The translations under genes were made by a program, and so were the position numbers. A stretch of 64,000 nucleotides of DNA, from positions 45,446,001 to 45,510,000 of the forward strand of contig OZ024753.1 of the NCBI GenBank assembly GCA_964016885.1, written 5' to 3'. The notes below the pieces were generated by a model that saw only the letters and a list, made by a program, of their open reading frames with translations, did not search any database and had not been told where the DNA came from. Below are positions 27,742 through 40,637 of the stretch, piece by piece (position 1 is the first letter of the stretch; every line of letters begins with the position of its first letter). The stretch is from Eledone cirrhosa. Lineage: Eukaryota.

Positions 27742-28340
27742 AGAAATGAAACATTGATTACAGGTTAAAATATAGTTTAGATAGATAAGAAACAAAACGA
27801 GGATGTAGTGTATGGAACACCCAAATGATTTAGAAGTCGACCTTAAGTAGGAGCAATAAAGAAAGACATGAACGACACCAACTCGGCCACCGAGACAGCT
27901 ACAAAAGTATAATGAAAATGAATAATTATAAACCTACTTTCAAGATCAAAGTATTGAACATTTTGAAAGTAAGTTTATAAGTATGAATTTTCAATAAATT
28001 TTCGTAGCTGTCTCAGTGGCCTAGTGGTAGGTATTAGAGACAGTGAAGATCCTGGTCTTGGGTTCGATCCTGATCGAGAAGTTTGGGTAATCTTTTTTAG
28101 TTTTTATTTTACATCCCATATAAAAAAAAACCTGATTAGGTTTACCGGGAACCCTACTCCCGACCAGGATCGAACTTCAGACCAGCATCGTCTATGATTC
28201 CTCCGACTAGGCCACCGAGACAACTACAAAAGTGTAATGAAAATTAATAATTATAAACTTACTTTCAAAATGAAAGTTTAAAAGATGTGGTGTCGTTCAT
28301 GGCTTTCCTAGAGATATTAGTCATATTTAGGGTCGACTTG
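27742..28340. mobile_element. Foldback repeat with two convergent tRNA-like (A/B box) units, copy 1
   Basis: Plus unit: TGGCCTAGTGG 28017-28027 and GGTTCGATCC 28061-28070. Minus unit: TGGCCTAGTCGG (28203-28214) and AGTTCGATCC (28167-28176). Long imperfect inverted arms. Homologous to 52242-52653. Confidence 0.75.
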
Positions 28341-28447
28341 TCAATCTTCTGGCTTTTGGTAACAACCTTATTTCTATGTCTGTTTAACTGTTGAAATAAT
28401 TTAATTTGATTATTTTAACAAACAAATAATATATATATATATAATAC

Positions 28448-30398: not shown

Positions 30399-30670
30399 AA
30401 GAGATATTCAATTTCTTGGTAATTCAACAAATATAAATGTTTATAACTGATTCAGAGCACTCAACAGCTTTTCTGGAGTATAAAATACAATGATATTAAA
30501 TAAATGGAAACTATATTTATAAAACCATATTTATTCTATTATATATATTTCAAGGGTACCAAAAATGTTGGTACGCACTCATCAGATAAAATACGAAGTG
30601 TGTTTGATATATTTTGACATAACCAAGGATAATATACCTTAACGGTTCAAGTTATCCCTGAATAATTGCT
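30399..30670 (-). mobile_element. Hammerhead-bearing PLE mini-element, family B copy 2 (uninverted)
   Basis: Colinear with 13895-14055, then continues as the reverse complement of 14056-14160. TA-rich flanks. Confidence 0.8.
30532..30593 (-). ncRNA. Type I hammerhead ribozyme (family B copy 2)
   Basis: Minus strand: TATTTTAT-CTGATGA-GTGC-GTACCAA cattt TTGGTAC-CCTT-GAAA-TATATA-TA-ATAGAATA. Confidence 0.72.
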
Positions 30671-30947: not shown

Positions 30948-30998
<51 letters not shown>

Positions 30999-31001
<3 letters not shown>

Positions 31002-31302
31002 TTTCTGAATTTGTTTAGTAAGATTCTTTATCTGAAATCGTGTGTTGAAACCGATATTGTTATGCTTTGGGAGGGTCATGTTGCCAATAAGAAACACACG
31101 CATCAGTTGCTTTCACTCTCAGAATGTGTGACGAAAGAACTTTGACAATATATGAACAACCGTCCGGTTATGGAACCAACCAACCAATCGGAAATTTATA
31201 ATTTCTTAAATTTGTAAATTTAATTTATAATAAATTGGAGTGAATGCAACTGGTGCGTGTGCTTCTTATTGGAAACATGACCCTCCCAAAGCATAACAAT
31301 AT
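30999..31302. mobile_element. Family A copy 2 (tail plus inverted copy)
   Basis: Tail 30999-31053 and 65-bp inverted arms 31054-31118/31238-31302. The inverted part starts inside hammerhead loop II (~31123). (TA)n on both sides. Confidence 0.82.
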
Positions 31303-31637
31303 ATATATATATATATATGTGTGTGTAAATGACTATATCCCTAGAAAAAGTGAAAGGAAGTCGATTGCTTTGTCAAACATTGTAAACGGCAGAGAGAATG
31401 TTTCAGACACCACTGCTGGAATAAATTGGATCGGAGATCGAGACTGGTAGATGTACCCCCCCCCCCCCCCCACACACACACATACACATACACACACATA
31501 CACATGCACGCACACACTAGAGAATTGTGCGTCTTAATGGGATCAGGAACTTCGAATCCTGTTGTAACCATATGCTGCAAGAGGGAAGGGAAATTAAAAT
31601 TAGTGAACAGACCCCCCCCCCCTCGCTCTCTCTCTCT

Positions 31638-31713
<76 letters not shown>

Positions 31714-32566
31714 ACGGATGGATAGATAAACTGACAGAAAGATATCAGTTTCAGTTAAGTTGTTATAACATTTTCAGGGATGAATGGACTCGTGAAAGGT
31801 TTTGTATTTTCCAGGAGCATTAACCAATATTGATAAACTTGTGTCATGCAGATATCGAACATATAGTGGTGAATCTACTGAACTCCCCAGGATTTCTAGA
31901 TTTCATACTTTGCCTCTCATATCGATCCCGCCGAAAATATTAATCGGAGATGAAGCCGTGATATTTATCCGTAGTGATAATAATCCCACGAAACTAGTAG
32001 TATTAAAAGTTCCGCTGTGTAAGTAAATTGTTTTGAACTTAAGCAAACTTATATCTTCCTAAAAGATCTTTTTCTGGAAATGTGAAAATAAATGGGGTAG
32101 CCATACTAGATTCACACTGACAAAAAGAACCATTTCTTTTACCATTTAGAAATTTTGCTATGAGATAATGTATGGTTCAAAGAAAATCGTTGAAAATATC
32201 AAATGGTAGGCCGATAAGTAATTTTCAACGTCACGCAACAGATCTAGACATTTTCATTAGATTATACAATAATAATATATCCTAAATGTGATCAACCACA
32301 TTACTGATAACAGGGGCTTAGAATGAAAAAGAAAAAAAGAGCTTTTGAAATCAGGTATGTATGTTATGGAAAAGTACACACACACTGAGACACATACACA
32401 TATACATACATATATATATATATATTATATATGTGTGTATATATATATATATATCATATATGCATATATATGTATATATTTATATATCATATATGTATGT
32501 ATATATATATATATGTATGTATATATTTATATATCATATATGTATGAATATATATATATATATATT

Positions 32567-32603
<37 letters not shown>

Positions 32604-33042
32604 GTATATATATATATTTGTATATATATATATATATTTGTATATATATATATATATTTGTATATATATATATATATTTGTATATATATATATATATATA
32701 TATAAATATATATAAACATATATATATATAATGTAGAAGTACATATAGAGAGAAGGATGAATTGAGTGGCCCCTGTTTCACGTAAGTACAAAATAAGCAC
32801 ACACACATAATCATATATACATATATGTAAGGTTACATATATCTGTACGTGTGTATGATTGTCCGTATATTTAACACACACACCCACATATATATATATA
32901 CACACATACACACACACATATATATATATATGTGTGTGTGTGTACATATATATATAATAAAAAATATATATACACATACACACACATATATATATATATA
33001 TGTGTGTGTATATATATGTATGTACATATATATATACACATG

Positions 33043-33128
<86 letters not shown>

Positions 33129-33333
33129 AGCTCACACATCGAGATAAAAATAGATGCATTAATAGATTTATAAAACATAGTTACCGACGTTCACTAATAT
33201 CCATTTATCAACGATTTTTCAGTTAACAACCAGCCAAAAGTTATTCTATATATGAGATTTGAAATATCAATTCGAAACACTACACATTCTTTACACTCTA
33301 TCTTCTATAGTAAATCTACTCACGTAACTTATG

Positions 33334-33367
<34 letters not shown>

Positions 33368-33429
33368 TATATACATACAACATATACATGTATCTACATA
33401 CATACACACATATATATATATATATGTAT

Positions 33430-33508
<79 letters not shown>

Positions 33509-33691
33509 ATTATCAAATATTATCTACGTACGTTTGTAAAATATGTTCAGTAAGGATTTCTTTGAAGTAACAAACGAAAATCTTTGATATTGATATTACA
33601 GAATTATAGAAACTCCTACCCTCCCATCATTCCCCCATTCTCCCCCCAGACTCTACCCCTCCTCAGTTTCTCTGTCTCCCCTCTCTCTCTC

Positions 33692-33747
33692 TATATATAT
33701 ATTTATATATATGTATATATGTATATATATATATTTATATATATGTT

Positions 33748-33778
<31 letters not shown>

Positions 33779-33917
33779 TCATATATATATATTTATATAT
33801 ATATATTTATATATATATATTTATATATATATATTTATATATATATATTTATATATATATATTTATATATTTATATATATATATTTATATATATATGTGT
33901 ATATATATATATTTATA

Positions 33918-33964
<47 letters not shown>

Positions 33965-34299
33965 GTATATATATATATTTATATATATGTATATATATAT
34001 ATATATTTATATATATGTATATATATATTTATATATATGTATATATATATATTTATATTTATATATATGTATATATATATATATATTTATATATATGTAT
34101 ATATTTATATTTATATATATGTATATATATATATTTATTTATATATATGTATATATATATATTTATTTATATATATGTATATATATATATTTATTTATAT
34201 ATATATATTTATATATATATATTTATGTATATATATTTATGTATATATATATATATTTATATTTATATATGTATATATATATATGTATATATATATATG

Positions 34300-34346
<47 letters not shown>

Positions 34347-34377
34347 GTATATATATATATATGTATATATATATATG

Positions 34378-34410
<33 letters not shown>

Positions 34411-34435
34411 GTATATATATATGTATATATATATG

Positions 34436-34502
<67 letters not shown>

Positions 34503-34535
34503 GTGTATATATATATATGTATATATATATATATG

Positions 34536-34578
<43 letters not shown>

Positions 34579-34579
34579 G

Positions 34580-34610
<31 letters not shown>

Positions 34611-34755
34611 GTATATATTTATATATATATGTATGTATATATATATATATATTTATATATCTCCTGTGATTTTTCATGTTTATATTTATTTATATATATG
34701 TTGATCAATATAGATATATATATATTCATATGTACATACACACATATATATATAC

Positions 34756-34802
<47 letters not shown>

Positions 34803-35345
34803 CACATATTTATGTATATACATATGTATATATATACATATATATATATATACACATATTTATGTATATACATATGTATATACACACATATATATGTATA
34901 TATATATGTGTGTATATACATATGCATATACATAAATGTGTGTGTTTATATATATACATATATAGATATATATACACACATATTTATGTATATACATATT
35001 TATATACATATATATACATATATATATAAATACACACATATTTATGTATATCCATATATATATATACATATATATATATATACACACACATATTTATGTA
35101 TATACATATATATATACATATATATATAAATACACACATATTTATGTATATCCATATATATACATATATATATATACACACACATATTTATGTATATACA
35201 TATGTATATACACACATATTTATGTATATACATATGTATATACACACACGTATATATAAATATATATACACACATGTATATAAACATATATATATATGTA
35301 AATACATATGTATATATTTTTATATATATATAAATGTATGTATAT
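33692..35345. repeat. Large (TA)n-derived array with TTTATA, TATGTA and TACACA zones
   Basis: Directly visible. Confidence 0.97.
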
Positions 35346-36203
35346 GCGAAATATAAAGGGAGACACAAAAGTAAACATTACAGTATAATAAAGAAATATA
35401 TAAATATATTACTTTAAAGCTTGATATAGTGAGAAAATAGTGCCACCGTTTCAGACACTACACCTTCATCAAAACAAACAAACAAAATAAAAGATTGGTG
35501 CTGCAATATTTAGTGAAGTGTCTACAAACCACAAACATTGTCGTCCAGTAAAGGAAATTACTAAGATATTCAACAACACAGACATCTACCACTTGTCTTT
35601 CAACGATTTCTCATTTTAGCTAATTTGGCCCCCTTTCTACTCGTTCTCTTCATTTATCTCTTTGTCTGTATGCATATCTCTCACCCTGTCTTTAGCTTTT
35701 GTTTGGTTATTATAAGGGGTATTAGATATCTTTCCAAGCCTGCTATGATTTACCACCTATTTATAGTTGTTTAATATGATTAAATTTTTGAATAAATATT
35801 AAATATTTGCCACTGCGATAAAATCTCGCCATTTTCTTTCCGACAATGTGTCTTCTTCTAGTGATACCAATCAGTTTTAATGCTACAATTGTGTTTTACC
35901 CAACACCCTGGTATGATGTTATACTACAAGACTCCAACGCAACGAAAGGGAGTGGAGCTGCAATCACCCAACTCTTATTTCTATTCGTATTTGTAGAGGA
36001 TTCACGTTTCATCCTCTTTCTTGTCTTATAGAGTGAGATACGTGTAATAACGTGACATAGTATATATTTTAAATCTTTCTATTTATCTATCTATATGTCT
36101 GTACCCCTCTCATGCTTTCTCTCTCAAACACATACACATACATACACACACACACACACACATATATATATGTATGTGAGTACTCGTGTGTTTGTGTACG
36201 GGT

Positions 36204-36251
<48 letters not shown>

Positions 36252-39061
36252 AAATGAATGTATGCAGTTTGTATGCATGCATGTATGTATGTATGTATAT
36301 GTGTCTGCACGCGCGGGCGTGTGTGTGTATGCACTAATAGATGTATGTATAAAAGTTAAACCGCTAACATTCATTCGTTATTGATGAAGGAAAGGTAAAA
36401 TTTTCTTCGCAAACAATTAATTTTCAGGCGGCTGTTTGTCTAGCCATATTTTGGAAGCAATTCCTCACCAAATTCTAGGAGATGAACAAACAAATTTTCT
36501 GTTTCGGAAATGGAGAGATATTTGGCGCCGACTCGGAAATATTCTTCTGTGTTCATTGTTCTGATAGACCAGAAATAGAAGTTGGAGTGAGTTTTGAAAT
36601 GTCTTTCCTGTAAATATAAACGACATACGTATTCCACTCAGATAAATAAAGAGACTGGCAACGTGTTTTCAAAGAGACAGACGCGCCTCAATATTTGATT
36701 TTTGCATACAAACAAACACACATAATATATGTATATATATTTATATTTGCACACATGTATATACATCTGTGTGTATGCAAAAAGTAAAAATATATATATG
36801 TATATACGTATGTATATGTGCATAAAAGTATATGAATATATGTTTATGTACATATATGTATATGCATATATGTAAATATATATATATATATATTTACATA
36901 TATGCATATCCATAAATATATGCATATCCATATATATATATATATACATATATATTTACATATATGCATATACATACATATATTCATATACATATATGCA
37001 TATTCATATACATATATGGATATTTATATATATATATATATATTGGCAAGGAACAAAACAAAAACAAGTAGTGCAGTACGAACAGTGTTGGTATTAGTTT
37101 CACGCTTGATAGTGTGTATGGGGGGGGGGGGTATAAACTTATGTATATATGTGTGGCTGTGTGTATAAATGGCAGTTTGACGGACAAACGCATCAATCTT
37201 TATATCAATTAGGAAATTTTGGAAGAAATCAGGAACTACCAACATTGTTAGCGTTTCTATGCCACTTGTATAATTGAAGATGTAGATCTCAGCCGCAATG
37301 CCGAGTCCCTATACACATCTAGAAGATCACCATCAAAGACCTACGTATAAAACCTACCATTAATTAATTCTAACAAATGTCATCTTATTTTTAAGAAGTA
37401 CAGATATTCTTCTGGATATTGAAGAATATTTTCACAAGAATGAGCGTTACCATTTATTCCTTTTTATTGAGAGATTATAATAAAATTTATCTCCTCAATA
37501 AATTCTAATGTCGATAATAACATTGGATACAAAATAATTTGCTCTGTGTTGTAGTTTATAAATAATTCAATATATACATATGTGTATGTGTGTGTGTGTT
37601 TGTGTGTGTCTGTGTGTGTGTCTGTATGTGTGTGTGTGTCTCTGTCTATGTGTGTGTGCTTGAAGAAAAAAACAAAAAGTACGTTACACAAAAATTGCTG
37701 TATATTTCGGTTATATAAATGGAATGTTTTTTTTTTTTGTAATTTATTGGAAATTCTACTTATGCAAGCAACTTTTTTAGATTCGAAATATGTTATTCAA
37801 AATATCGACTAGTTTTCGAAATACAATTTCTTTAGATAATTTTTAATCTCATAACTGAATGGTTTGTGCCCTACACGTTACACTTTCACGAAATATAAGG
37901 TTCTGTTGAGGATATTCATGGATGCGGTGTGATAAGATCATTTGAATAGATTATAGAACGACCTATGCAGAATAAATGAAATATTATTCTATCTACGCTT
38001 CATGCTTATATATAAACCTAGCGAACGCTGACGTGTAGCCAGCCTTTACAGAAGAAAGCTTTGCGAAAAGTTTTGATGGGAAGTTGTTTATGTAACACGC
38101 TGGTATATACACACAAGTATACGCACATGCAAACACAGACCCACCTCACTATTTTCTCTCTCTCACTTTCTCTATTTCTCTCTCCGTATATATACTGTGT
38201 GTGTGTGTGTTGATGCGTTATGATGCAGTTTATATACTATCACGCAATCAAGTGTGTGTATGTAAATATGTGTGTTTGAACGACTACATATAAATAACGA
38301 AACAAAAGAAGGGAGGCAATTATACTTTCTTTTATGTATTATTTTAAAATGTCAAACATCTTTGTACTTCTCTCCTGATGTATTTTTCCCTCTCATATAG
38401 TAATAAATATTTCATTGAAATAAACGATATCGGGTCAACCTATCATTATTTACCAGTGAATGATTTACATTTTCAGTGAGATTTTTTTTCCGTTTCTTAT
38501 TATCAAGCTAGTATTTCTGTAAAACGCATATTTTATGGTGTGTTGTCATAGACTAATTCAAGCTGAATTCCCAGAATGGGAACCATTTTGATATGGCATT
38601 ACGCAACCCTTTCCATTTCTGCATCAGTTCAGAATCCAATCCGCAATCCGCAAAGTCTTTAAATACGAAATGAAAACAACCCATTGTATATATATGAGAA
38701 TATAGCTTGTTAAATAAAACATAAAGAATAGGAGAGTTTAATGTAGCGAATATATTGCTGCAGAATAGAAGTTTGAGAAGGATAAGAAAGGATTTGGAGA
38801 GAGGGTGTGAGAAATACATTGAGAAAGATAGGTGGATATATAGATAGATAGTGTATATATATACATATATATGTGGAGAGAGAGATAGAGGGGAGGGGCT
38901 TAGATAGAATAAGAGTTGTGGAAAGGAGAAAATAATTGAAAAATAATATTTTGGTTTCTTCTAAAGAATATAAAAGATATAATATGCAAGATATTTCCAA
39001 ATGATATGATGCATAAGTGAACAGGTTTAGGATATACAATTACTACGGTAACCAATGTACT

Positions 39062-39126
<65 letters not shown>

Positions 39127-39745
39127 GCATATATATAAATAAAAGATGAGACTTGAGCATCACAGGGTATAATGTACTATTGGTAACAGGTTCAAATCTC
39201 TACGGTCAACGGTCGACGGAATGGATTTACACCTACACAGTTTCGACCACTACCGATAGTACTGCTGCGCCATCCGGGAGTCACTCTAGAGACAGTGTTT
39301 CACTATTTTGTCAGTCACTGTAACCCGGTATTTGATTTGCAGAATTTTCTATGTCTTCTAAACTTGCTTTCATATTAACCAGTGTGATTTTGTCGGTTTT
39401 CTCTGACCTTCCATACGTTTGGCCAGAATTCTCTCATTTTTTTTTACTCAAAACCCTCTCTTCTTTCTTTGGTTGTGGAAGAAGTTTTCAGGCCATAAAA
39501 CCACTTGTTATTTACTTCTTCATTTATATCTCGTCCTCCTTTCTCTAGTTAATTCAAGAAAGTTTCTATGCTTGAGGTAACATTCAATTTTCTTTTCTTT
39601 TCCTAGTAGTTATCTCAAGTTATTTAATGGTTACGATTTGGCTTATTATTCGTCTCTGAGTGGTGACTATCCTTCATCTTGTCTGATATAGTGCATGCCA
39701 CGCAAGATAATAGCAGGCGAGGAACACCAGCATCAACAATTATCC

Positions 39746-39787
<42 letters not shown>

Positions 39788-40054
39788 ACGTGAATATAAT
39801 TGTTTGATAAGATATAATTATTTGACGAAACAAAGGCCCGACATAAGAAGCAATAAATTAAAACACATGATGTTACATACTCCGTATTCAATATAAAACT
39901 TAATAGTCCCAAAGAGAAGGTTTACGAATATCGTGTTTGATTTCATGGAATATTTACAGAGAAACCGAAATCATTTGTAATAAAATAATTTTCTCTTGAT
40001 GAAGCGCAGTGGCATTGACATTCCGTCAGGTTTCACTCTTGGACATTCACATAG

Positions 40055-40460
40055 ATATATATACACACATATACTGACACATATATATACACACACATAC
40101 TGATACATATATATACACACACATACTGATACATGCATATACACACACATACTGATACATACATATACACACACACATACTGATACATACATATACACAC
40201 ACATATACTGACACATATATATACACACACATACTGATACATACATATACACACACATACTGATACATATATATACATACATATACTGACACATATATAT
40301 ACACACATATACTGACACATATATATACACACACATACTGACACATATATATACACACATATACTGACACATATATATACACACACATACTGATACATAC
40401 ATATACACACACATACTGATACATACATATACACACACATACTGATACATATATATACAT
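40055..40460. repeat. ~24-bp minisatellite (ATACACACACATACTGATACAT..)
   Basis: Directly visible. Confidence 0.93.
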
Positions 40461-40530
40461 ACATGTATGAATGCCTGCATTTGTACAGACGTGCATGCAT
40501 CGACACACACACACTCATATATATATATAT

Positions 40531-40576
40531 TTCGTTTCTGAATTTATTGGCAACATGACCCTCCCAAAGTATAACA

Positions 40577-40580
<4 letters not shown>
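40531..40580. mobile_element. Family A copy 3: 50-bp remnant made of two opposed element ends
   Basis: TTCGTTTCTGAATTT (tail terminus) fused to TTATTGGCAACATGACCCTCCCAAAGTATAACAATAT (inverted arm end), inside (TA)n. Confidence 0.8.

Positions 40581-40637
<57 letters not shown>

What the first reader, a model, noticed from the sequence alone, without database searches (positions are those of the whole stretch)
30999..40580. Family A trio records the insertion mechanism: two fixed ends with a variable junction
Seen: all three copies start at the same terminus, TCGTTT(C/T)TGAATTT. Copy 1 (3778) continues uninverted. Copy 2 switches strand after 120 nt and copy 3 after only 15 nt. Both inverted segments end at exactly the same internal ...ATAACAATAT. 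Copy 3 (50 bp) has no palindrome at all, just two opposed ends joined at a TT microhomology. Inference: two independent cDNA priming events occur on opposite target strands, one at the RNA 3' end and one at an internal ATAT that can pair with (TA)n. The two cDNAs are then joined. This is twin-priming-like integration, not MITE-type TIRs.
Basis: partly seen in the sequence, partly recalled or inferred. Interest (0 to 1): 0.75.

Follow-up and report, generated by a model that had tools for sequence, protein, structure and literature searches.

The report
Penelope retrotransposon primed at two sites
These three repeats are broken-off ends of a very abundant Penelope-type jumping gene whose mirrored insertions nearly always carry one long and one short end, likely because both cut DNA strands start copying the element's RNA at two fixed sites; the layout is already known, but this family makes the likely mechanism testable.

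Summary
Observation confirmed. The trio are 5'-truncated copies of a (TA)n-targeting Penelope-like retroelement (PLE). [quoted passage not shown] An inverted arm plus a one-sided 'tail' is the textbook PLE layout, and two internal RT start sites were shown in vitro (PMC11167929).

Both ends (A, B) are internal AATAT|CG sites 60 nt apart at the ORF start; neither is simply the RNA 3' end. Two-ended insertions pair A with B in 72 of 73 cases. The arms share source haplotype (252 of 254 sites) and usually overlap (57 of 63), so this is not L1 twin priming. A subfamily with an internal 12-28-nt TA run never ends there (0 of 37 arms), so TA pairing does not choose the site. Junctions: 27 of 61 microhomology, 28 insertions, 6 blunt.

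The RT has a conserved ~65-aa fingers insertion that the described C-terminal-nuclease clades lack. The scan noted the same end rule before in other PLE families of this genome. Empty alleles and expression are untested.

The parts
3775..4149 (-). Copy 1: single-arm 5'-truncated PLE end (pLTR + tail); long end B at about 3774/3775, site A at 3834; 5' end runs into a TA array
3990..4032 (-). Minimal type-I hammerhead motif: 4-bp stem I, CUGAAGA core, extra G, 6-7-bp stem II, GAAA, 1-bp stem III; predicted cut after 3994; activity untested
   Evidence: matches the min-HHR description in PMC4209133; no Rfam hammerhead hit
3775..3833 (-). 'Tail' between start sites A and B; in intact copies it encodes about ORF residues 9-28
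30995..31118 (-). Copy 2, B arm (+60 to about -63), TATA-register variant of the long end (13 of 112 such ends)
31120..31302 (+). Copy 2, A arm (about -183 to 0), starts inside hammerhead stem II; overlaps the B arm by about 64 nt
40527..40545 (-). Copy 3, B arm (+60 to +42)
40544..40580 (+). Copy 3, A arm (-36 to 0); TT at 40544-40545 shared with the B arm
30948..30998 (.). (TA)n target run left of copy 2 (a shorter run follows 31302)
40577..40634 (.). (TA)n target run right of copy 3
4148..5095 (.). TA-rich array at the 5' end of copy 1

Best explanation
The three repeats are 5'-truncated copies of an endonuclease-bearing Penelope-like retroelement whose inverted insertions have one end at site A and one at site B, likely because its protein nicks both strands of a (TA)n run and starts one cDNA at each of two fixed internal RNA sites in a coupled reaction. 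Shown: element identity, intact ORFs, the two ends (AATAT|CG, 60 nt apart, in the first 28 codons), strict A/B pairing, arm overlap, shared haplotype of the arms, and non-use of a better TA match. Inferred: both target 3'-OH ends prime; site choice is set by the protein-RNA complex (a dimer, by analogy with PAc), with the 4-5-nt ATAT only permissive; both cDNAs usually come from one RNA or from two RNAs of one source locus, and a single RNA would need strand displacement. The cDNAs stop at variable points, often at a likely RNA 5' end near -260, and host end-joining fuses them head to head (short microhomology or templated insertions). If one priming fails, a single-arm copy such as copy 1 results.
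For: Family loci run into RT + GIY-YIG ORFs; intact ORFs in L253 (two, head-to-tail) and L261. Model pLDDT 91.5; top Foldseek hits are TERTs; VIA Z 14.7, rmsd 3.4, 274 aligned to TERT, and Z 10.0, rmsd 2.2, 90 aligned to I-TevI GIY-YIG on residues 691-790. A ends 16,071 and B ends 16,603, near 1:1. First 100 A ends on C1: 72 A..B, 1 A..A (binomial p 8e-21 against free choice). The A arm reaches further upstream than the B arm in 33 of 63, so it cannot be a fold-back copy of the B cDNA. Arms agree at 252 of 254 diagnostic sites against 59% between insertions. 0 of 106 arms end at the ATATAT at -152, and 38 of 38 arms in 20 loci picked for a long TA run there read through it. Microhomology of 2 nt or more in 18 of 33 insertion-free junctions against 16% null; 5 of 13 longer inserts have a template within 40 nt. 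PAc cleaves and extends both strands and starts at two internal sites that delimit the tail (PMC11167929).
Against: All mechanism steps are read from dead copies; no biochemistry or RNA data here. About a quarter to a third of anchored copies have one arm only (21 of 100 A ends, 29 of 100 B anchors). One of 23 informative insertions has arms of different haplotype, which one RNA cannot give. Arm identity could partly come from gene conversion between inverted arms. No fixed TSD was found (3 of 59 informative duplications). In PAc the start site is not homologous to the cut DNA and both strands use the same sites without preference, so the in vitro data do not show the A/B coupling. The samples are the first matches on one contig and overlap each other.
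Confidence: 0.72

Rival explanations
1. Dual priming: two RNA molecules from the same source locus, each primed on one target strand by an asymmetric complex (a variant of the best explanation that needs no strand displacement).
For: Arms overlap in 57 of 63; one insertion has arms of two haplotypes, differing at 2-4 sites; dual priming is proposed for L1 (PMC2837659).
Against: 22 of 23 informative insertions are concordant although many subfamilies exist; two free RNAs each carrying both sites should give A/A and B/B unless the complex is asymmetric (1 of 73).
Confidence: 0.3
2. Self-priming or fold-back: one cDNA (or an antisense RNA) snaps back and is copied, making the inverted arm (proposed in PMC3846280).
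For: Some junctions sit on natural palindromes at -83 and -109 with 18-28-nt self-complementary centres; equal 5' ends in 9 of 51 simple inversions against 2.9 shuffled; shared haplotype of arms is expected.
Against: The A arm is longer than the B arm in 33 of 63 and the B arm carries tail that an A cDNA lacks, so neither arm can be the template of the other; copy 3 has no overlap at all; 52 of 63 have unequal ends.
Confidence: 0.08
3. Classical L1-type twin priming: first primer at the RNA 3' end, second at a chance internal match to the target, non-overlapping fragments.
For: Copy 3 and about 15 of 72 A..B insertions have a B arm that stops before site A; junction microhomology is enriched.
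Against: The inner site is fixed, not chance; the outer site is internal in ORF-bearing copies; arms overlap in 57 of 63; a better TA match is ignored; the protein is a PLE, not a LINE.
Confidence: 0.05
4. MITE or foldback DNA transposon with TIRs.
For: Palindromic look and TA flanks.
Against: Asymmetric ends, variable 5' truncation into an RT-GIY-YIG ORF, hammerhead motif; symmetric ends in 1 of 73 A-anchored insertions and one real B/B insertion among 100 B anchors.
Confidence: 0.01

Closest known systems
EN+ Penelope-like elements with inverted 5'-truncated pLTR and one-sided tail (PMC3846280: passages and Discussion read; PMC8557442: passages, Fig. 2 legend, supplement parts 1, 54, 55, 58 read)
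   Same: Single RT + C-terminal GIY-YIG ORF whose first codons lie in the pLTR and tail; partial tandems; head-to-head inverted arm; tail on one side; (TA)n targets; N-rich insert in the ORF; min-HHR in the pLTR.
   Different: Tail is 60 nt, not 30-40. Strict one-A-one-B pairing, arm haplotype identity and the TA read-through control were not found in the passages read or in searches.
Poseidon_Ac (PAc) in vitro, Frangieh et al. 2024 (PMC11167929: main text parts 1-2 of 4 read)
   Same: Two internal RT start sites in the 5' part of the ORF delimit the tail; both strands cut and extended; AT-rich targets; hammerhead upstream.
   Different: Here both start sites are AATAT and match the target over 4-5 nt, whereas PAc's are not homologous; different clade features; PAc work does not explain inverted copies.
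Nematis clade of C-terminal EN+ PLEs (Craig et al. 2021, Figs S1, S2, S7 text)
   Same: Short linker C-x4-C-x2-C-x7-C before VVY...YIGET, and KIVERPG resembling Nematis_Pp RIVEKPG.
   Different: RT motif A-to-B' spacing is 128-134 aa in 75 of 80 homologues, against about 62-65 counted by eye for Nematis, Neptune and Penelope rows; homologues named from octopus, coral and sea cucumber.
L1 twin priming and dual priming (PMC2837659: passages read)
   Same: Two primings on opposite target strands, inverted fragments, junction microhomology.
   Different: L1 primes at poly(A) and a variable inner site, and leaves an internal deletion inside TSDs; here both sites are fixed and the arms overlap.

Membership tests
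EN+ Penelope-like elements | Telomerase-related RT | tested here: met
   DKSG, DVVSLYP, YVDD motifs; TERTs fill the top 14 VIA rows, Z 13.2-14.7. Pfam finds nothing in this protein. No tree was built.
EN+ Penelope-like elements | GIY-YIG nuclease in the same ORF with two Cys inside the motif (CCHH) | tested here: met
   VVYSIRCTEGQC...YIGET...EH...QH; I-TevI Z 10.0, rmsd 2.2, 90 aligned
EN+ Penelope-like elements | pLTRs from partial tandems, inverted 5' copy, one-sided tail | tested here: met
   L168, L253, L248-L267
EN+ Penelope-like elements | Minimal hammerhead in the pLTR | tested here: met
   122 motif copies in the C1 stretches fit the descriptor of PMC4209133; Rfam gives no hit; cleavage untested
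Nematis clade | Short CX2-5CxxC linker before a C-terminal EN | tested here: met
   against Figs S2 and S7 text, by eye
Nematis clade | No insertion in fingers (stated for canonical C-terminal EN+ PLEs) | tested here: not met
   spacing 128-134 aa in 75 of 80 rows; conserved insert shown; statement
Nematis clade | RT phylogeny groups with Nematis | not testable with these tools
   no named reference proteins were available in the script box
Neptune clade | Long (about 30-aa) spacer in the linker zinc finger | tested here: not met
   7-aa spacer here against Neptune rows
Hydra clade | CCHH absent, CxCX5C linker, DKT | tested here: not met
   Cys pair present, C-x4-C-x2-C, DKS (definitions)
Naiad/Chlamys | N-terminal EN | tested here: not met
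   EN is C-terminal
L1-type twin priming | Two inverted fragments with an internal deletion | tested here: not met
   overlap in 57 of 63
L1-type twin priming | Flanking TSD | tested here: inconclusive
   pure TA flanks hide it; 3 of 59 informative duplications (14, 14, 32 nt), most interrupted flanks unmatched
MITE | Symmetric TIRs, fixed length, no RT link | tested here: not met

The most novel reading that the evidence does not exclude
This family represents an unnamed, widespread lineage of C-terminal-nuclease PLEs with a telomerase-sized insertion in the RT fingers, and it integrates by an obligatorily coupled two-site reaction in which one RNA is copied twice over the same bases, one start site per target strand. 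That would explain the inverted pLTR and the one-sided tail of PLEs in a single step.
Probability: 0.3. Interest if true: 0.72.

Novelty: new variant of a known kind. Interest (0 to 1): 0.5.

Why it matters
How PLEs, the sister group of telomerase, build their inverted ends is stated as open in PMC8557442 and PMC11167929. This family gives exact start sites, an intact ORF, thousands of recorded products and a natural control. These argue against fold-back and simple TA annealing, and they define a direct in vitro test. The fingers insertion bears on whether that telomerase-like feature is confined to N-terminal-nuclease PLEs.

Tried and rejected
The repeat finder was swamped by microsatellites. 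Rfam found no hammerhead. Pfam found nothing useful in the family's own proteins; two homologues gave weak, sub-cutoff RVT_1 hits and one a weak GIY-YIG hit. Sequence searches of the PDB gave only weak RT and I-TevI hits. My first label 'Neptune' was dropped after reading the linker alignment.

The 257 apparent ends at -150 looked like a symmetric subfamily but were an internal TA expansion. Twin near-identical hairpins behind both ends, a lead from earlier scan notes, were not seen: only a weak stem at A and a different 5-bp hairpin 4 nt past B. The hammerhead cut site (about -161) is not a clear 5'-end peak (5 of 162 arm ends in -170..-150).

Empty alleles: the three RAD-seq runs do not cover the unique flanks, so no test. 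No RNA run was laid, so expression and the RNA 5' end remain open. No homodimer prediction was obtained. GGAIG, GGPIG, GAAIG and GETARS were absent from the text of the Craig supplement, but aligned rows carry gaps and reference ORFs are only partly included, so this is weak. Repbase and the supplements of PMC11167929, PMC3846280 and the bioRxiv preprint were not seen and may hold this lineage or the A/B rule.
Full report
Observation. The long-end motif is at 3779, 30999 and 40532, and both inverted arms end in ATAACAATAT at 31302 and 40580. Copy 2 switches strand at 31117-31120; copy 3 switches after 14-15 nt with TT at 40544-40545 shared and no palindrome; copy 1 is uninverted. The window lies in a 3.0-Gb, microsatellite-rich animal genome. 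The best named protein homologue is from Octopus vulgaris at 66-67%, so a cephalopod host is likely (inference). The motif has 20,728 exact matches against 81 for the reversed control.

What it is. Copy 1 carries a hammerhead core on the minus strand at 4028-4000. It has a 4-bp stem I, a long stem II, an unpaired base before stem II and a 1-bp stem III, as described for minimal hammerheads in PLE pLTRs (PMC4209133, part 1 of 4 read); 122 such motifs occur in the C1 stretches. Longer copies run on into a GIY-YIG nuclease and an RT. L253 holds two head-to-tail copies, each with an intact ORF of 1,318 aa from the Met, and L261 holds another. The RT-EN model has pLDDT 91.5; telomerases are its top matches and residues 691-790 match I-TevI. 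This is an endonuclease-bearing Penelope-like element. An inverted 5'-truncated copy plus a one-sided 30-40-bp tail is its described layout (PMC3846280; PMC8557442).

The two ends. I number from site A, the last T of TAACAATAT; the long end B is +60. In L168 and other ORF-bearing copies both sites read AATAT|CG and lie in the first 28 codons. B reads on into the ORF in 491 exact matches, so it is an internal site and not merely an RNA end; in RNA from B-ended copies it would be followed by genomic UA repeats. A ends running into TA number 16,071 and B ends 16,603; 13,719 copies read through A. In three RAD-seq runs, 1,920-2,296 reads each leave the element at A into (TA)n. PAc starts reverse transcription in vitro at two internal sites that delimit the tail, and cuts and extends both strands (PMC11167929).

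Pairing. I classified the first 100 A ends and the first 100 B motifs on contig C1; the two sets overlap and are not a random genome sample. A-anchored: 72 end in B (63 long, 9 short; 6 of the 63 stop at +48 to +56), 1 in A, 21 single-arm by script (three of these show a short B arm by eye), 3 with an inverted piece and no end, 2 cut by an edge or gap, 1 unresolved. B-anchored: 57 end in A, 29 single, 3 rows B..B (one insertion counted twice, one via an internal junction), 4 edge, 4 inverted piece, 2 internal junctions, 1 chance match. 72 of 73 is far from free choice (p 8e-21). 84 of 100 ends in each set have four or more TA units outside.

Geometry. The B arm passes site A in 57 of 63, so both arms copy the same bases. 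L1 twin priming instead leaves an internal deletion (PMC2837659). The A arm reaches further upstream in 33, the B arm in 19, and they are within 15 nt in 11. Neither arm can therefore be a fold-back copy of the other, which counts against self-priming (PMC3846280 Discussion) as the general route. Arms of one insertion agree at 252 of 254 subfamily-diagnostic calls (23 informative of 45 pairs) against 59% between insertions; one insertion is discordant (107 of 110 in the first set). At a looser threshold 18 of 362 calls differ, mostly single sites such as a CpG. Both cDNAs thus usually come from one source; one RNA against two RNAs of one locus cannot be told apart, and gene conversion is not excluded.

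Site choice. An ATATAT at -152 is never an end (0 of 106). A subfamily has this run expanded: in 20 loci that I picked from the 257 matches, 38 of 38 arms read through it, 37 of them with 12-28 nt of TA; 16,618 ordinary copies read on. Pairing with the target therefore does not pick the start. The twin hairpins that earlier scan notes report for Hydra-type families are not evident here; what the two sites share is AAC(A/GAA)ATATCG.

Junctions. Of 84 head-to-head junctions 81 were resolved; I set aside 20 in the indel-prone AT palindrome block. Of the other 61, 25 have 1-4 nt microhomology, 2 have 5 nt, 6 are blunt and 28 carry 1-31 inserted bases; some inserts may be subfamily variation. Among the 33 without inserts, 18 have 2 nt or more against 16% expected (p 5e-7). 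Five of 13 inserts of 6 nt or more match sequence within 40 nt (one longer insert skipped), as in polymerase-theta end joining (recalled). Arm 5' ends are dispersed but pile up at -271 to -251 (19 of 162, about 2.9 expected). In the TA-expanded subfamily 12 of 24 listed pairs are spaced 194-248 nt, and the 8 of these I fetched stop there on both arms. A transcript 5' end there is likely but untested. TSDs are hidden by pure TA; 3 of 59 show an informative duplication.

Clade. The linker (C-x4-C-x2-C-x7-C) resembles Nematis, not Neptune or Hydra, by eye against Figs S2 and S7 of PMC8557442. But RT motifs A and B' are 128-134 aa apart in 75 of 80 homologues, about 65 more than in canonical rows, and the insert is conserved. 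That paper states that canonical C-terminal EN+ PLEs have no insertion in fingers. I therefore file it as an EN+ PLE but in no named clade. Searches found no description of such a lineage; an octopus repeat annotation lists Penelope families without detail (PMC13282606, passages); Repbase was not available. The retrozyme preprint (10.64898/2026.07.22.740005, passages) added nothing on this.

Verdict. The layout is known for PLEs, and the scan has noted the same end rule in other families of this genome. New variant of a known kind; interest 0.5.

Noticed in passing
window 13901-14240 and 30406-30664: A second hammerhead-bearing family (CTGATGA..GTACC/GGTAC..TGAAA cores at 14134 + and 30585 -), itself arranged as inverted arms; likely another PLE family.
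   Followed up: no
window 16612-17033, 20314-20638, 26236-26351, 27881-28272: Further imperfect palindromes; 27742-28352 has relatives at 52242-52652. Possibly more head-to-head PLE ends.
   Followed up: no
window 5872-6077, 17795-17928, 22512-22671, 50853-51058, 60621-60753, 62259-62350: A dispersed repeat of 100-200 nt with at least six copies at 74-91% identity, SINE-like.
   Followed up: no
L253:420-8829: Two identical-length intact ORFs in a head-to-tail array with a 4,423-bp unit; a candidate recent source locus.
   Followed up: partly
P0114 residues about 250-520: Asn/Thr-rich low-complexity insert, absent from homologues, like the N-rich inserts of Adineta PLEs.
   Followed up: no
G000:C1:132947049-132947575: At least 12 tandem copies, 46 bp apart, of the site-B read-through motif: a satellite built from the tail.
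   Followed up: no
L024:1440-1900: An A/B insertion in (ATT)n instead of (TA)n; both ends use only AAT of the start motif.
   Followed up: no
G000:C1:13257032-13257580: The one insertion whose arms differ at 2-4 diagnostic sites, suggesting two source RNAs.
   Followed up: partly
L271, L276: Both arms stop near -912 to -925 in two insertions of one subfamily: a possible second template 5' end.
   Followed up: no
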